Shown here one piece after another: positions 29,619-39,238 of a stretch of DNA of 64,000 bases. Source of the DNA: an uncultured Candidatus Marinamargulisbacteria bacterium (GTDB lineage: Bacteria > Margulisbacteria > Riflemargulisbacteria > GWF2-35-9 > DYQY01); NCBI GenBank assembly GCA_964643725.1, contig CAZXTL010000004.1, positions 27,874 through 91,873 of the forward strand, in the 5' to 3' direction. Every line of letters begins with the position of its first letter. Positions within the stretch are counted from its first letter, which is position 1. The notes under the pieces are model-generated. The model ran no database searches and was not told the origin of the DNA. It saw only the letters and a list, made by a program, of their open reading frames with translations. The position numbers were made by a program, and so were the translations under genes.

Positions 29619-29705
29619 GAAATTATTATACTGTTTATTCGTTGATTTGTTTATATGTTTATTTGTTTAAGAAAGAGTATTTTTAGTTAATATGATTATA
29701 TTTAC

Positions 29706-32051: not shown

Positions 32052-35508
<3,457 letters not shown>

Positions 35509-35518
<10 letters not shown>

Positions 35519-35545
35519 TGGTTCAATTGTTCATTAGTTCAATCG
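35509..35545. repeat. Left arm of an imperfect inverted repeat (GTTCATTGGTTCAATTGTTCATTAGTTCAATCGTT) spanning the GH57 start codon and the four-helix-bundle gene stop
   Basis: A 13-nt perfect complement (GTTCATTGGTTCA / TGAACCAATGAAC), plus further imperfect GTTCA(A)T-type repeats, to the arm at 36021-36058. Confidence 0.75.
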
Positions 35546-35922
35546 TTAATCTTATTCAGTTGTTTAAGATATTTGATAAAACTATTCACCTTTCTTGATA
35601 ATATATTGATTTGTTCTTCTATTACTATACTATCCTCTTTTTTAATATATCCAAGATTATTAGCTATTATTATTTGTGTTTCTATTTCAGAAAGAGAGCC
35701 AAGAGCAATATATAAATGTTTTAAATACTCCTTATCTGATTGCTTTGCGGCACCTTCAGCAATATTTGATGGTACAGACACACTTGCTCTTTGTATTTGA
35801 GAGCAAAGTGCAAATTTTTCAGACTCAGGAAATTGTTTAGTGATTTTGTAAATAGCTGTAACAAATTCTATAGATTCTTTCCAGATATCTAAATCTTTAT
35901 GTGTTCCCATTTTTTTCTCCAT
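35539..35922 (-). CDS. Four-helix-bundle protein (the family formerly called '23S rRNA intervening sequence protein'). The likely true start is the MGTHKDL Met, 12 nt inside the ORF.
   Basis: Strong family signature read by eye: ...QFPESEKFALCSQIQRASVSVPSNIAEGAAKQSDKEYLKHLYIALGSLSEIETQIIIA..LGYI. Confidence 0.8.
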   Translation of the reverse strand: MEKKMGTHKDLDIWKESIEFVTAIYKITKQFPESEKFALCSQIQRASVSVPSNIAEGAAKQSDKEYLKHLYIALGSLSEIETQIIIANNLGYIKKEDSIVIEEQINILSRKVNSFIKYLKQLNKIND

Positions 35923-36020
35923 TTATAATTTTTAAATAAATAATTGAGTCCTGCAATATTATAGTATATAAATAGCAATTAACTAATAGTTATGCTTTTT
36001 TTAGTTATGATTTAATTTTT

Positions 36021-36058
36021 CCCAATGAACCATTGAACGAGTGAACCAATGAACCGTT
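36021..36058. repeat. Right arm of the inverted repeat (CCCAATGAACCATTGAACGAGTGAACCAATGAACCGTT), abutting the hom stop codon
   Basis: Reverse complement of the left arm. Together the two arms bracket the four-helix-bundle gene and its upstream region (35539-36020). Confidence 0.75.
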
Positions 36059-37307
36059 ATATCCCTACTCTTATAATACTAGCCACGTCTTTGATGCAAG
36101 ACAATGCTTTTATCTTTTCAATGGCTTTGTTTTTAATTCCTTCTTTGATGGAATGTGTAACAATCACTAGTTCTGCATCTTCGTCAGCACCTTTTTGGAT
36201 AGCTTCTTTGATACTGATATTAAGTTTAGCAAAGATACCACTAATTTCTGCAAGTACACCAGGTTTGTCTTCAACGAGTAACCTTATGTAGTACTTGGAG
36301 ACTATTTCTTCTTTAGGTAGTATATTCACTTTTAGCTTTTTCTCTGTAACGTAAGCTGTGCCGTTGATGATATTTAGTATATCTGCCCAAACAGAACCTG
36401 CGGTTGGAATACTTCCAGCTCCACGTCCATAGAACATGCTTTCTCCTGTAGCATCTCCATCTACGTAGATAGCGTTGAATACATCGTTGACCGAAGCAAG
36501 TGGGTGACTGTTTTTTAGAATAACAGGATGTACTCTTAGTTCTAGTCCTTTATCAGTGTTTCTTGCAATGGCTAATAGTTTAATGCTGGCATCAAGGTTT
36601 TTTGCATAATTAATGTCTTTAGCAGATATTTTAGTAATGCCTTCCATTAAAATCTGTTCAATATTTATATCAGCATGAAAAGCTATAGAAGCTAGGATAG
36701 AAAGTTTGTACCTGCTGTCCATACCTTCAACATCTGATGAAGGATCAGCCTCGGCATAACCTAGTTTTTGTGCTTCTTTTAATACAACTGCATAATCAGC
36801 GCCTTCTTTTTGCATCTTGGTAAGGATAAAGTTAGTTGTTCCGTTAAGAATACCAACCATTTCCTTAAAGTTATTTGGTGATAATGAATCTTTTAGGTTA
36901 TTAATGATAGGAATTGCACCACCAACCGAAGCTTCATAAAGTAAGGATACGTTGTTATCTTCAGCTAGCTTAAGTAGATCTTTGCCGTATTTTGCAAGAA
37001 CAAGTTTATTAGCAGTAACAACGTGTTTTTTTGCTTTTAATGCAGATTCAATAATGGTTCTAGCAGGCTCATCTCCACCAATAAGTTCAATTATTATGTT
37101 TATTTCTGGGTCTGCAATAAGTTCTTTGAAGCTGTTAGTTTTTTGAAAAGATGATAGGTCGTAAGGGCATTTGCTAAAGTCTAAATCGCAAATAGTTTTT
37201 AGTTTAAAAGGGGTTTTCGCATGTGAGCTTAATTTGGCAAAATTGCTTTGGTATAAGTGGATAACGCCTGAGCCGATTGTTCCTGTGCCGATTAATCCAA
37301 TGTTCAT
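36057..37307 (-). CDS. hom: Homoserine dehydrogenase
   Basis: N-terminal NAD(P)-binding GLIGTGTIGSGV motif, a central catalytic region, and a C-terminal ACT-like regulatory domain. 416 aa. Confidence 0.9.
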   Translation of the reverse strand: MNIGLIGTGTIGSGVIHLYQSNFAKLSSHAKTPFKLKTICDLDFSKCPYDLSSFQKTNSFKELIADPEINIIIELIGGDEPARTIIESALKAKKHVVTANKLVLAKYGKDLLKLAEDNNVSLLYEASVGGAIPIINNLKDSLSPNNFKEMVGILNGTTNFILTKMQKEGADYAVVLKEAQKLGYAEADPSSDVEGMDSRYKLSILASIAFHADINIEQILMEGITKISAKDINYAKNLDASIKLLAIARNTDKGLELRVHPVILKNSHPLASVNDVFNAIYVDGDATGESMFYGRGAGSIPTAGSVWADILNIINGTAYVTEKKLKVNILPKEEIVSKYYIRLLVEDKPGVLAEISGIFAKLNISIKEAIQKGADEDAELVIVTHSIKEGIKNKAIEKIKALSCIKDVASIIRVGI

Positions 37308-37325: not shown

Positions 37326-37350
37326 AAAGGGAAAAGGGAAAAGGGAAAAA
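37326..37350. repeat. (GGGAAAA)x3 direct repeat in the hom 5' leader, read as CCCUUUU repeats on the coding (minus) strand
   Basis: aaagggaaaagggaaaagggaaaaa, read directly. Located 19-43 nt upstream of the hom start codon on the minus strand. Confidence 0.8.
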
Positions 37351-37365
37351 GTATAAGGTGAAAAG

Positions 37366-38598
37366 TTAGCTGGTATGTTTTTTTAAGTCACTTATGTCTG
37401 TTGTTCTTAATTCTGTAAAATTACTAATAAAAACAGCTAGAGGAATCCTAAGAATTCCATCACGTGTGTCATGTGGATTTATAAGAACTATTTCGTCAGT
37501 TTCTTCTTGATATGATTGAACAAAGTAAGCGTGTTTTGGGTAAATTCGAGTATTTGGTGGTTTAATAGTACTACCAGCAACCATTAATTGATTACTTATA
37601 AAAGCTGAATAGTCTTTTATTCTAGACCTCAGCTTGTCAATGTCTTTAGAGTATATGTTTTGTGATTTTTTACCTAATAATATTTCTATCGCACTTTTCA
37701 TTGAACCAAGAGTTGTTAGTTCCATTGTGTTTGGTTCATAAGAGTCAGTATCTTCGTCATCAAAGGACCCCAAGTCAGACCTTCGTGCTTCTATTTCTAC
37801 TATGGCTTTCCCAAAAGTTCTTTCCATAATTAGGTCGCCGATTCTGCCTTTGTTAAGCTTATTGTTGATGCTAAGTAGGTCTTCAATATTTATTGTTGTA
37901 GTAATTTTCCCCATATTGCCATTTTTATCAGAATGTCTTGGGTCGTAGTAAGTTACTGACCAAGTAAATGGCGAGATTTCCTCAATCATTTTGGGAATTA
38001 CTTTTTGTGCAATGTATGTTCTTAATATTCCTTCGTAGACTGCTAAAAAATAACAATTTCCAACAATTCCTTGTTTTATAGCACCTTCTTGTAATCCCCT
38101 AGGAAATAGATGATGGATATTATGAAATGAAGGGTTCCATTCCATTAATTTGGACATTGATACATCTTTATATTTATTGTCATTATCCCAAGCAACGGTG
38201 TATTTGTTGTTTTCTCTGGCTTTTATGGTCCCTTCATGAAAACTTTGTGTTGTTTTACTGAAAACTCTAATTTTACTTTGTCCAATTCTAAAAGGGTTAT
38301 GGTATTCAAGTTCTAGTGAATGAAACCATTTTTTCCCTTTGGGAGTATCAATAAGATGCATTCCGTCTTCTGTTTTGAGTATTTCTTTAGGAATATACTT
38401 GCCATTATCCTTAATAAATACCGTATCTCCAGCATAGAACGTTCTTTCAGATATTTTTCTTGATATAGCAATAACTTTCTTCTTCATACTTACTATTAAG
38501 CCCAGAAAACAAGACAAATAAACATTTCGGAAATCCATCCGCTCAAATGTACTTAAGGCTTCATAAGGTAGAAACTTGTGAGCACCTTCCTTTATCAA
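37366..38598 (-). CDS. Calpain-like (clan CA, C2-type) cysteine peptidase homologue. The start is uncertain: the track start is TTG, and Met21 or Met38 are alternatives.
   Basis: QGIVGNCYFLAV matches the calpain active-site Cys block QGxLGDCWLLAA (Cys182, codon 38053-38055). KHAYFV matches GHAYSV (His356). VLINPHD matches RLRNPWG (Asn374). Cys-His-Asn spacing of 174/18 aa compares with ~157/24 aa in calpain. Confidence 0.6.
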   Translation of the reverse strand: MIKEGAHKFLPYEALSTFERMDFRNVYLSCFLGLIVSMKKKVIAISRKISERTFYAGDTVFIKDNGKYIPKEILKTEDGMHLIDTPKGKKWFHSLELEYHNPFRIGQSKIRVFSKTTQSFHEGTIKARENNKYTVAWDNDNKYKDVSMSKLMEWNPSFHNIHHLFPRGLQEGAIKQGIVGNCYFLAVYEGILRTYIAQKVIPKMIEEISPFTWSVTYYDPRHSDKNGNMGKITTTINIEDLLSINNKLNKGRIGDLIMERTFGKAIVEIEARRSDLGSFDDEDTDSYEPNTMELTTLGSMKSAIEILLGKKSQNIYSKDIDKLRSRIKDYSAFISNQLMVAGSTIKPPNTRIYPKHAYFVQSYQEETDEIVLINPHDTRDGILRIPLAVFISNFTELRTTDISDLKKHTS

Positions 38599-38621
38599 GG
38601 AAGGTTTAGGTGGGCGAATGG
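38585..38621 (+). repeat. Partial, diverged copy C of the same element: hairpin CCTTCC-TTTATCAA-GGAAGG, then TTTAGGTGGGCGAATGG. It lies upstream of the DUF559 gene.
   Basis: The loop TTTATCAA is the reverse complement of the copy-B loop region TTGATAAA. GGTGGGCGA matches GGTGGCGA. Together with copy B it brackets DUF559 at 38669..39049. Confidence 0.5.
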
Positions 38622-38668
38622 CATTATAGTAACTTTAAATACGTTGCGTTGTTTAGTAAAATGGGACT

Positions 38669-39049
38669 ATGCGAGATCAGATTCCGTTTGTCCCTTATGA
38701 AAAAAGATTGTTGGTTTTTTCGCGGAGGAATAGGATGAATCCTACGCTTGGTGAAGCGAGGATGTGGGATATTTTGAAGAATGATTGTTTTAAAGAATAT
38801 AGATTTTTAAGGCAGAAACCATTATATAAGTTTATTGCTGATTTTTACTGTAGTGCCTATTTATTAGTCATCGAGGTTGACGGAGATTACCATGATTCTG
38901 TCAAAGAATACGACCAACTAAGGGAAGATATCCTTAAAGAAAACTTTGGAATAGAGATTATCCGTTTCACCAATGAAGAAATCATAGAATGCCCCGACTT
39001 CGTCATTAATAAGCTACTAGAAAGATTACACTCACTAAACCCTTCTTGA
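38669..39049 (+). CDS. DUF559 endonuclease-domain protein (Vsr-like fold)
   Basis: Matches the DUF559 consensus: ...ARMWDILKN..FKEYRFLRQKPLYKFIADFYCSAYLLVIEVDGDYH....YD..R...L...GIEIIRFTNEEI. Confidence 0.8.
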   Translation: MRDQIPFVPYEKRLLVFSRRNRMNPTLGEARMWDILKNDCFKEYRFLRQKPLYKFIADFYCSAYLLVIEVDGDYHDSVKEYDQLREDILKENFGIEIIRFTNEEIIECPDFVINKLLERLHSLNPS

Positions 39050-39121
39050 TAAAGAAGGGTGGCGACACCGTAGTGCTTCAGGATTTGTCGATACCTTACG
39101 CCGGGAAGATTGGTGTTTTTT
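39036..39121 (+). repeat. ~85-nt structured repeat element, copy B: hairpin CCCTTCTT-GATA-AAGAAGGG overlapping the DUF559 stop, then GGTGGCGACACCG...TTACGCCGGG..., ending in a T6 run. It may also act as the DUF559 terminator.
   Basis: An 8-bp perfect stem at 39040-39059. A 51-nt gap-free alignment to copy A at 29738-29788. The T-run is at 39116-39121. Confidence 0.7.
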
Positions 39122-39163: not shown

Positions 39164-39226
39164 AATAGTGAATAGTGAATAGTGAATAGTGAATAGTGAA
39201 TAGTGAATAGTGAATAGTGAATAGCG
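39164..39226. repeat. Perfect heptanucleotide tandem repeat (AATAGTG) x8 plus one AATAGCG unit, ending 12 nt before the ORF7 start codon
   Basis: Read directly from the sequence: aatagtg x8 at 39164-39219, then aatagcg at 39220-39226, followed by aaAGGTGAagtaATG. Confidence 0.95.
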
Positions 39227-39238
39227 AAAGGTGAAGTA

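What the first reader, a model, noticed from the sequence alone, without database searches (positions are those of the whole stretch)
35509..36058. Four-helix-bundle ('rRNA-IVS protein') gene bracketed by complementary repeats within an mRNA operon, resembling an intervening-sequence cassette
The four-helix-bundle protein family is named for its occurrence inside 23S rRNA intervening sequences. Those sequences are excised by RNase III at a stem formed by flanking complementary sequences. Here the gene sits between hom and the GH57 gene, all on the minus strand and apparently co-oriented. Imperfect inverted repeats with a 13-nt perfect core (GTTCATTGGTTCA / TGAACCAATGAAC, embedded in ~35-nt GTTCA-repeat arms) flank it exactly. 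One arm abuts the hom stop and the other overlaps the GH57 start codon. On a hom-to-GH57 read-through transcript the arms could pair into a long-range stem that loops out the whole cassette. That could be an RNase III processing site, a regulatory switch occluding the GH57 start and its leader, or the scar of a mobile cassette.
Basis: partly seen in the sequence, partly recalled or inferred. Interest (0 to 1): 0.6.

Follow-up and report, generated by a model that had tools for sequence, protein, structure and literature searches.

The report
Stem-bracketed selfish gene inside an operon
A small, conserved four-helix-bundle gene sits between two housekeeping genes of a Margulisbacteria genome. 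It is bracketed by mirror-image arrays of 8-base repeats, the same build as the intervening sequences cut out of ribosomal RNA. The same build surrounds this gene family in protein-coding operons of many bacterial phyla.

Summary
A 123-aa PF05635/TIGR02436 four-helix-bundle (4HB) gene (35539-35910, minus) lies between hom and a GH57/DUF3536 gene. It is flanked by two inverted arms, each four 8-nt GTTCAnnn units. One arm starts 2 nt after the hom stop; the other contains the GH57 ATG.

It is not a scar. An orthologous cassette exists in a relative (dN/dS 0.09, dS 1.5). Closer relatives lack it, and outgroups have overlapping hom/GH57 stop-start codons.

The main result is that this is a family-wide architecture. 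Of 76 4HB loci, 64% have inverted 7-8-nt tandem-array arms, against 1.4% of shifted controls. In 76% the gene is co-oriented with both neighbours. The arms abut the host stop and start codons.

The Coxiella 23S rRNA IVS has the same parts, including tandem heptamers, and is cut by RNase III in its stem.

Best reading: an IVS-type cassette resident in an mRNA operon, whose arms close a long-range RNA stem. Processing or translational coupling is inferred, not shown. Counter-evidence: arm mismatches favour the antisense strand, and solo and direct arrays exist, so a DNA-level role remains a serious rival.

The parts
36023..36056 (-). 5' arm on the transcript: CG + four 8-nt units GTTCATTG GTTCACTC GTTCAATG GTTCATTG. 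It begins 2 nt after the hom stop codon.
35911..36022 (-). AT-rich internal spacer with GGAG 8 nt before the 4HB ATG and one perfect TATAAT. It is absent from the orthologous cassette in L009, where the spacer is 16 nt, so it is dispensable.
   Evidence: no consensus promoter in this spacer and no terminator found
35539..35910 (-). Four-helix-bundle protein gene (123 aa; an alternative upstream ATG at 35922 gives 127 aa). Family PF05635 / TIGR02436.
   Evidence: dN/dS 0.088 against the L009 orthologue
35513..35545 (-). 3' arm on the transcript: CGATTGAAC TAATGAAC AATTGAAC CAATGAAC. The innermost unit holds the 4HB stop TGA (35539-35541). The outermost unit holds the GH57 start ATG (35516-35518).
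36057..37307 (-). Upstream host gene hom (homoserine dehydrogenase, 416 aa).
33140..35518 (-). Downstream host gene, GH57 + DUF3536 (792 aa). Its native N-terminus [13 protein letters not shown] is shared with cassette-free orthologues. The Shine-Dalgarno run present in empty sites is missing here.

Best explanation
This is an IVS-type four-helix-bundle gene cassette living in a protein-coding operon instead of a 23S rRNA gene. A small, functional 4HB gene was inserted into what was originally a translationally coupled hom/GH57 junction.

It carries two inverted arms, each four 8-nt GTTCAnnn repeats, placed exactly at the host stop codon and the host start codon.

Proposed mechanism:
- hom, the 4HB gene and GH57 are transcribed together.
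- On that transcript the arms pair into an imperfect stem of about 34 bp whose base is a perfect 13-bp helix. This loops out the roughly 480-nt cassette and brings the hom stop and the GH57 start back together.
- By analogy with ORF-bearing rRNA IVSs, the stem is a likely RNase III substrate. Cleavage would release the 4HB mRNA from the host message.
- While uncut, the base helix hides the GH57 AUG until a ribosome terminating at the hom UAA, 2 nt upstream of the helix, melts it. That would re-create the hom-to-GH57 coupling the insertion would otherwise destroy.

Shown: the parts, their placement, their conservation, family-wide recurrence, and thermodynamic feasibility.
Inferred: co-transcription, stem formation in vivo, RNase III cleavage, and coupling.
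For: Identity and anatomy.

Predicted stem: it closes the cassette in both MFE and centroid structures, z = -5.2, with 0 of 100 shuffles as stable. No terminator-like site lies between the genes.

Ancestral junction: outgroup Margulisbacteria have overlapping hom/GH57 stop-start codons, TAATG and TAGTG. Empty sites in closer relatives carry a GGGGG Shine-Dalgarno that is absent in both filled sites.

Age and function: an orthologous cassette in L009/L010 has GTTCA arms at the same stop and start positions. 4HB dN/dS is 0.088 with dS 1.5, similar to hom at dS 1.9. All GTTCA cores are retained although the internal spacers are remodelled.

Family-wide pattern:
- 76 4HB loci from about 15 phyla have a median inverted-flank score of 33.5, against 18 for direct, 17.5 for reversed and 17 for shifted controls.
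- 64% score at least 28, against 1.4% of shifted controls; Mann-Whitney p = 3e-25.
- The period is 7 or 8, the median is 4.2-4.4 units per arm, and both arms share the same period in 45 of 52 loci.
- 58 of 76 genes are co-oriented with both neighbours, and the 5' arm lies within 20 nt of the upstream stop in 31 of 35.
- The downstream start lies within -13 to +30 nt of the 3' arm end in 27 of 35.
- The arm-arm stem appears in the MFE of the whole cassette RNA in 39 of 49 loci.

Experimental precedent: the Coxiella IVS has a 4HB ORF, a 28-bp terminal stem, tandem GACAGAT heptamers whose copy number varies between strains, and RNase III cuts mapped in the stem (PMC4990558).
Against: - No RNA data exist for this organism. 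Co-transcription, folding across a 480-nt loop while ribosomes translate the 4HB ORF, and RNase III cleavage are all unverified.
- Across the family, arm mismatches are A.C rather than G.U on the sense strand: 76 vs 37 overall (p = 3e-4), and 52 vs 23 in co-oriented loci. The arm hairpin is more stable on the antisense strand in 33 of 45 loci. This is the opposite of what selection for a sense-RNA helix predicts.
- A simple stem does not need tandem-repeat arms.
- Arrays of the same kind exist solo. There are three in this window, and a CAATGAAC x5 array in L001.
- A few cassettes have direct rather than inverted arrays (L014; L216).
- No RNase III gene lies in the 64-kb window. This is uninformative about the rest of the genome.
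Confidence: 0.5

Rival explanations
1. The arms act on DNA. They are the ends or landing pads of a mobile or recombining cassette, used for homologous or structure-specific recombination between short tandem arrays. Pairing in RNA is incidental or even selected against.
For: - The cassette is present or absent at the same junction among relatives.
- Non-orthologous loci with similar 4HB proteins tend to have similar arm units: L022/L028, L045/L071, L056/L061; Spearman rho 0.10, p = 7e-4.
- An array at one site is swapped between strains, CTATTCA x10 versus CAATGAAC x5, the latter being the cassette's own arm unit.
- Unit variants move between the two arms in orthologous loci L036/L062.
- The sense-strand A.C bias fits counter-selection of the sense fold.
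- Direct-array exceptions look like insertion into a pre-existing solo array (L014, L216).
- Convergent heptamer array pairs without any reported gene are abundant in Xanthomonas (PMC4692102).
Against: - No transposase or recombinase is associated, and no target-site duplication is visible.
- Arm sequence differs from locus to locus, so no sequence-specific enzyme can recognise all of them.
- The cassette has stayed at this site with arms intact over dS of about 1.5.
- The strong bias to sit co-oriented inside operons, exactly between host stop and start, is not predicted by DNA transposition alone.
- There are no hits in 50,697 phage records.
Confidence: 0.27
2. The arrays are binding sites for a protein acting on RNA or single-stranded DNA. 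This could be the pentameric 4HB protein itself, or a general factor such as S1 or CsrA as proposed for TAACTGA repeats. It would control translation of the flanking genes, and complementarity between the arms would be secondary.
For: - Solo arrays in this window sit directly upstream of start codons: 39164-39228 before ATG 39239, 37326-37365 before the hom ATG, and 29632-29669.
- The same placement was reported for TAACTGA repeats (PMC4679880).
- The median of 4.2-4.4 units per arm is close to the five subunits of the 2GSC homopentamer (structure described in PMC4990558).
- The homologue Avd is the accessory protein of diversity-generating retroelements. That it binds nucleic acid is from my own knowledge, not from a tool result.
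Against: - Unit sequences are very diverse while the protein's invariant residues are the same.
- The property conserved across loci is complementarity between the two arms.
- The window protein is not basic: pI 6.7, with 16 K+R against 16 D+E.
Confidence: 0.13
3. A decaying insertion scar, or chance simple-sequence repeats with no function.
For: Simple repeats arise readily by slippage. Coxiella's own IVS ORF is reported to be decaying.
Against: dN/dS is 0.088. The arm cores are retained although synonymous sites are saturated. Shuffles and shifted controls exclude chance. The architecture recurs in about 15 phyla.
Confidence: 0.03

Closest known systems
ORF-bearing 23S rRNA intervening sequences (Coxiella burnetii helix-45 IVS; Leptospira IVS)
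   Same: Same protein family in the loop. The element is about 430-590 nt long, and the ORF is sense to the host transcript. Terminal inverted repeats form a closing stem (28 bp in Coxiella). Tandem 7-nt repeats sit at the 5' end, with copy number varying between strains. It sits in a host RNA whose two halves must keep working (PMC4990558).
   Different: The host RNA here is an mRNA operon (hom-GH57), not rRNA, and Rfam finds no rRNA in the window. The units are 8 nt. The arms touch a stop codon and contain a start codon, so translation is involved. The ORF is under strong purifying selection here, whereas it is reported as decaying and untranslated in Coxiella. RNase III cleavage is not demonstrated here.
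Intergenic heptamer tandem arrays: cyanobacterial STRR, Xanthomonas GGGAATC (70-75 convergent pairs), Beggiatoaceae/Bacteroidetes TAACTGA
   Same: Short 7-8-nt units in intergenic arrays of a few to tens of copies, often immediately upstream of start codons. Convergent (inverted) pairs have been described. The taxa involved are the same ones rich in 4HB genes: 29 of 36 plasmid hits are cyanobacterial, and L048 is a Pseudoxanthomonas cassette with GGGAATR arms.
   Different: In the passages I searched, those papers treat the arrays as stand-alone repeats (G-quadruplex formers, or translational regulator sites). Searches of them for 'four helix' and 'S23' found nothing. Here the arrays are the two arms of a gene cassette.
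Avd, the accessory protein of diversity-generating retroelements
   Same: Homologous four-helix-bundle fold; the query matches PF22296 bAvd at E 4e-8.
   Different: It scores 34 bits against the 80-bit cutoff of NF033474. No reverse transcriptase gene is adjacent; the neighbours are hom and GH57.
MITEs and REP/BIME-type extragenic palindromes
   Same: Small intergenic elements with inverted ends, variable presence between strains, and the capacity to form hairpins in transcripts.
   Different: This element carries a conserved protein gene. Its arms are locus-specific tandem arrays rather than a genome-wide consensus terminal inverted repeat. No target-site duplication is visible, and the element is strongly co-oriented with host operons.

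Membership tests
23S rRNA intervening sequence (IVS) element | Inserted in a helix of a 23S rRNA gene | tested here: not met
   The cassette lies between hom and GH57. There is no Rfam hit in the window. None of 20 other 4HB loci tested is in rRNA.
23S rRNA intervening sequence (IVS) element | Terminal complementary sequences that close the element in a stem-loop | tested here: met
   Inverted arms found. The closing stem appears in MFE and centroid structures, z = -5.2.
23S rRNA intervening sequence (IVS) element | Loop ORF of the S23p / PF05635 family (ORF-bearing subclass), sense to the host transcript | tested here: met
   PF05635 E 2.4e-38. Same strand as hom and GH57.
23S rRNA intervening sequence (IVS) element | Excision from the host RNA by RNase III | not testable with these tools
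   Needs RNA end-mapping or an in vitro cleavage assay. The only precedent is in Coxiella.
Four helix bundle protein family (TIGR02436 / PF05635) | Scores above the curated HMM cutoffs and is related to solved four-helix-bundle structures | tested here: met
   PF05635 131 bits vs 33.8. TIGR02436 124 bits vs 24. PDB 2GSC E 1.3e-29 and 2RLD E 5e-6.
DGR accessory protein Avd | Passes the Avd equivalog model and sits next to a reverse transcriptase | tested here: not met
   NF033474 34 bits vs cutoff 80. PF22296 34 bits vs 40. The neighbours are hom and GH57.
Transposable element (IS / MITE) | Target-site duplication, and terminal inverted repeats shared by multiple copies | tested here: inconclusive
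   No duplication is visible when filled and empty junctions are compared. The arms are unique to this locus within the 64-kb window. However, the same unit forms a solo array in L001.
Short tandem intergenic repeats (STRR / LSSR heptamer class) | Tandem 7-nt (here 8-nt) units in intergenic DNA, several copies | tested here: met
   TRF reports period 8 with 4.2-4.6 copies in both arms. The family-wide period is 7 in two thirds of loci and 8 in one third.

The most novel reading that the evidence does not exclude
The 7-8-nt tandem arrays found in intergenic regions of cyanobacteria (STRR), Xanthomonas, Beggiatoaceae, Bacteroidota and Margulisbacteria, and the stand-alone Avd-like 4HB genes, may be two halves of one selfish system spanning many phyla.

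In this reading, the gene-bearing cassettes in operons and in rRNA (the classical IVS) are the autonomous form. Solo or paired arrays are their gene-less derivatives or landing pads. The pentameric 4HB protein would act on the arrays by binding about five units of RNA or single-stranded DNA. It might promote array copying, cassette spread (possibly through an RNA intermediate, given its kinship with a retroelement cofactor), or processing.

This would explain why cassettes sit sense-oriented in well-transcribed host RNAs.
Probability: 0.15. Interest if true: 0.85.

Novelty: new variant of a known kind. Interest (0 to 1): 0.66.

Why it matters
Three things have been treated as unrelated and are all of unknown function:
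- rRNA intervening sequences and their 'S23p' ORFs.
- Short heptamer arrays (cyanobacterial STRR, Xanthomonas GGGAATC, Beggiatoaceae TAACTGA).
- The very abundant stand-alone four-helix-bundle (Avd-like) proteins.

This window, together with the 76-locus survey it prompted, shows they share one architecture. Most members of that architecture live in ordinary mRNA operons, wedged exactly between a host stop codon and a host start codon.

This turns the question of what IVSs and these proteins are for into testable experiments in culturable bacteria: an rnc mutant, arm-compensation reporters, and protein-array binding.

It also explains spurious 'associations' of this domain with other systems, for example the cas6-4HB-cas4 arrangement seen here.

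Practically, it flags a class of insertions that may reshape operon expression without disrupting genes.

Tried and rejected
1. **Chance.** Rejected by shuffles and by direct, reversed and shifted-window controls.
2. **rRNA context.** No Rfam hit in the window or in 20 other 4HB loci.
3. **Decaying scar.** Rejected by dN/dS of 0.088.
4. **DGR membership.** Avd model below cutoff, and no reverse transcriptase gene adjacent to the cassette.
5. **L005 spacer as arm remnant.** I first read the 58-nt spacer of the 'empty' L005 junction as a remnant of a GTTCA arm. It is instead a REP-like element, CACTGAGCCTGTCGAAGTG, also present in L007, so I dropped that claim.
6. **Arm unit copied from the target.** The GH57 start ATGAAC is native, as empty sites also begin ATGAACAA. 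That fits the idea, but I could not test it at other loci because no other filled/empty pairs were available.
7. **Wobble asymmetry as support for a sense-RNA stem.** It came out the opposite way. It is reported as counter-evidence.
8. **Internal promoter.** The consensus scan found none in the 5' spacer. That spacer holds only an isolated TATAAT (read from the sequence). The spacer is also absent in L009.
9. **Other copies of the arms in the same genome.** Even so, 5 of 80 arrays lay directly beside a 4HB gene, always as 5'-GTTCA..gene..TGAAC-3'.
10. **Phage carriage.** None found.
11. **RNase III gene in the window.** None found by signature motif; uninformative.
12. **Literature.** In the library searched I found no paper linking 4HB genes outside rRNA to flanking inverted tandem arrays. 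Subscription-only papers and database family notes were not searchable.

Full report
**1.

The ORF at 35539-35922 (minus strand) is a four-helix-bundle (4HB) protein.
- It matches PF05635 at E 2.4e-38 and TIGR02436 at 124 bits against a cutoff of 24.
- Its closest solved structure is XCC0516 of Xanthomonas, PDB 2GSC, at E 1.3e-29.
- The likely start is ATG 35910, preceded by GGAG. This gives the 123-aa protein on record as P0121.

On the transcript strand the layout is:
- hom ...TAA CG
- [GTTCATTG GTTCACTC GTTCAATG GTTCATTG] GG
- a spacer of about 110 nt that is AT-rich
- the 4HB ORF
- [CGATTGAAC TAATGAAC AATTGAAC CAATGAAC] AAG..., where the last ATG-AAC is the start of GH57.

The arms are therefore four 8-nt units each (TRF period 8), inverted relative to each other. 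The perfect 13-bp match lies at the outer ends, next to the hom stop, and includes the GH57 start codon. GTTCAnnnGTTCA occurs six times in 64 kb, all in the two arms, against 0.08 expected.

**2. Organism and history of the site**

GH57 homologues name the lineage as Candidatus Margulisbacteria. The identical cassette is found on four metagenome contigs. Orthologous hom-GH57 junctions differ as follows.

| Locus | GH57 identity | State of the junction |
|---|---|---|
| L212, L213 (outgroups) | 54-56% | stop and start overlap (TAATG, TAGTG); a translationally coupled pair |
| L011 | 70% | 25-nt spacer with a Shine-Dalgarno run |
| L005, L006 | 82% | 58-nt spacer with a REP-like hairpin |
| L007, L008 | 80% | about 300 nt of GC-rich hairpins |
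| L009, L010 | 73% | orthologous 120-aa 4HB gene |

In L009/L010 the 4HB protein is 78% identical to the window's. The arms are GTTCAYTT x4 and nnATGAAC x3, starting 2 nt after the hom stop and again containing the GH57 ATG.

Identities across three genes give the tree ((window, L005, L007), L009), L011. The cassette was therefore most simply gained once and later lost or replaced in the L005 and L007 lines.

Between the window and L009, the 4HB gene has dN/dS 0.088 with dS 1.5. The values for hom are 0.070 and 1.9. So the gene is functional and about as old as the split. Every GTTCA core survived saturation of silent sites, while the internal spacers changed from 115 to 16 nt on the 5' side and from -3 to 73 nt on the 3' side. 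Both filled sites have lost the Shine-Dalgarno run that precedes GH57 in empty sites.

**3. The architecture is family-wide**

This is the main result. I fetched 80 4HB loci from one-genome-per-species contigs and analysed 76 loci with adequate flanks: 74 of those 80 plus the window and L009. For each, the 200-nt upstream flank was compared with the reverse complement of the 200-nt downstream flank.
- The median local-alignment score is 33.5. The direct control gives 18, the reversed control 17.5, and pseudo-genes shifted by 450 nt give 17.
- 64% of real loci score at least 28, against 1.4% of shifted controls (p = 3e-25).
- The arms are tandem arrays of period 7 (two thirds) or 8 (one third), with a median length of 32 nt. 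The median is 4.2-4.4 units per arm, and both arms share the same period in 45 of 52 loci.
- The unit differs from locus to locus (AGTGAAT, CAGATGC, AAGGTRCT, GGGTTCAT, TTAGATT, GGGAATG and others), but the two arms of a locus are complementary.
- The strand reading inward is C-poor on each side: the 5' arm has 500 G and 166 C, and the 3' arm has 149 G and 514 C.
- 58 of 76 genes are co-oriented with both neighbours. The 5' arm starts within 20 nt of the upstream ORF's stop in 31 of 35 co-oriented loci.
- The downstream ORF's first start codon lies -13 to +30 nt from the 3' arm end in 27 of 35.
- None of 20 loci tested is in rRNA.
- Carriers come from Bacteroidota, Bacillota, Chloroflexota, Nitrospirota, Acidobacteriota, Desulfobacterota, Verrucomicrobiota, Omnitrophota, Cloacimonadota, Calditrichota, Ignavibacteriota, Bipolaricaulota, Pseudomonadota, Melainabacteria and others.
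- Plasmid hits are mostly cyanobacterial (29 of 36). They show the same build, for example N. punctiforme with CAGGAGT arrays and Riemerella with AAGGTTYA arrays.
- In the reverse direction, 5 of 80 random (GTTCAnnn)x4 arrays from metagenomes lie directly beside a 4HB gene, always oriented as in the window.

**4. Link to true IVSs**

The Coxiella burnetii helix-45 IVS has been characterised experimentally (PMC4990558).
- It is 428 nt long and carries a 4HB ('S23p') ORF sense to the rRNA.
- It has two to three tandem GACAGAT heptamers at its 5' end, and the copy number varies between strains.
- RNase III cuts map within the stem, at the start of the first repeat.

These are the same parts as here. 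What differs is the host RNA, which here is an mRNA operon.

**5. How it probably works**

The 581-nt transcript folds with the arm-arm stem closing the cassette in both the MFE and the centroid structures (-117.6 kcal/mol; z = -5.2). The same closing stem appears in 39 of 49 cassettes elsewhere. No terminator-like site separates the genes. In L009 there is no room for a promoter between hom and the 4HB gene.

I therefore propose co-transcription and a long-range stem that loops out the 4HB message and re-juxtaposes the host stop and start. Two consequences are plausible and not exclusive:
- RNase III excision, as in rRNA IVSs.
- Termination-dependent unmasking of the GH57 AUG. The hom UAA lies 2 nt from a 13-bp perfect helix that contains that AUG, so a terminating ribosome would melt it. 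This would restore the ancestral coupling despite the loss of the Shine-Dalgarno run.

Both are inferences.

**6. What argues against a purely RNA reading**

- Mismatches between arms are biased toward A.C on the sense strand: 76 against 37 G.U overall (p = 3e-4), and 52 against 23 in co-oriented loci.
- The arm hairpin is more stable on the antisense strand in 33 of 45 loci. In the window itself the sense strand is marginally better, -35.1 against -33.7 kcal/mol.
- Arrays also exist without genes. The window has three solo arrays, each just upstream of a start codon.
- A sister strain (L001) has a solo CAATGAAC x5 array, the cassette's own arm unit, exactly where the window has CTATTCA x10.
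- A few cassettes have direct arrays (L014, L216).
- Similar proteins at non-orthologous sites tend to carry similar arm units.

Together these keep a DNA-level role as a serious rival. That role could be recombination between arrays, cassette mobility, or concerted evolution of the arms. They may also mean the sense fold is tolerated rather than optimised.

**7. Novelty**

Published work describes IVS ORFs in rRNA and, separately, heptamer arrays: STRR, TAACTGA, and Xanthomonas GGGAATC with 70-75 convergent pairs.

In the searchable library I found nothing connecting 4HB genes outside rRNA with flanking inverted tandem arrays, or with operon junctions. That library omits most subscription papers and all database family notes, so the absence is not proof.

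I class the finding as a new variant of a known kind. The window locus is an ordinary member of what appears to be a large class not described in the literature I could search.

Noticed in passing
window 38583-39061: The DUF559 (Vsr-like endonuclease) gene at 38669-39049(+) is bracketed by two copies of a palindromic hairpin (CCTTCCTTTATCAAGGAAGG / CCCTTCTTGATAAAGAAGGG). The whole block of about 590 bp is absent in sister contig L001 and present in L002. The empty site reads ...CTTTCTTGAAA|TGTTTATTTG. This looks like a second kind of small bracketed selfish-gene cassette.
   Followed up: partly
window 39164-39228; L001:3311-3347: A solo (AATAGTG)x9 array ends 10 nt before the ATG (39239) of a 1147-aa ORF. 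AGTGAAT is also the arm unit of 4HB cassettes in unrelated taxa (L034, L035, L043, L085). In L001 the same site instead carries (CAATGAAC)x5, the arm unit of this window's 4HB cassette. Arrays are therefore exchanged between strains.
   Followed up: partly
window 37326-37365 and 29632-29669: Two more solo short tandem arrays. (TCCCTTT)x5 on the minus strand lies just upstream of the hom start codon. (TGTTTATT)x4.8 lies next to another minus-strand gene start. Their placement resembles the TAACTGA repeats described upstream of start codons in Beggiatoaceae.
   Followed up: no
L007:6390-6750 (also L008): A small GIY-YIG nuclease gene is inserted between GH57 and tgt. It is flanked by two TTCCCGC-loop-GCGGGAA hairpins and is absent from the window and from L005.
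   Followed up: no
L216 (Pseudanabaena galeata plasmid NZ_CP112875.1, 45068-47824): A 4HB gene sits between cas6 and cas4, co-oriented with both. It is flanked by direct rather than inverted arrays: (CTAAAAG)x15 upstream and (CCAAAAG)x9 downstream. Hitch-hiking of this kind may explain the published 'CRISPR association' of the 23S_rRNA_IVP domain.
   Followed up: partly
window 37366-38598 (minus): The 410-aa ORF listed from a TTG start is probably 373 aa, starting at MKKKVIAIS as called on L001 and L002. The extension runs into the DUF559 cassette's flank. The protein has only a weak, sub-threshold calpain-like hit.
   Followed up: no
L005:3944-3975; L007:6978-7001: A REP-like element, CACTGAGCC(T/A)GTCGAAGTG, recurs in related genomes, including at the 'empty' hom-GH57 junction of L005. 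The junction appears to be a hotspot for several kinds of small insertion.
   Followed up: no
L136:1884-3220: In a GC-rich metagenome contig, GTTCA/TGAAC arrays lie 1.25 kb apart and enclose both a 4HB gene and a Sir2-family gene. Arm pairs can therefore span more than the 4HB ORF. L033 and L038 also have extra local inverted arrays on each side of the cassette.
   Followed up: no
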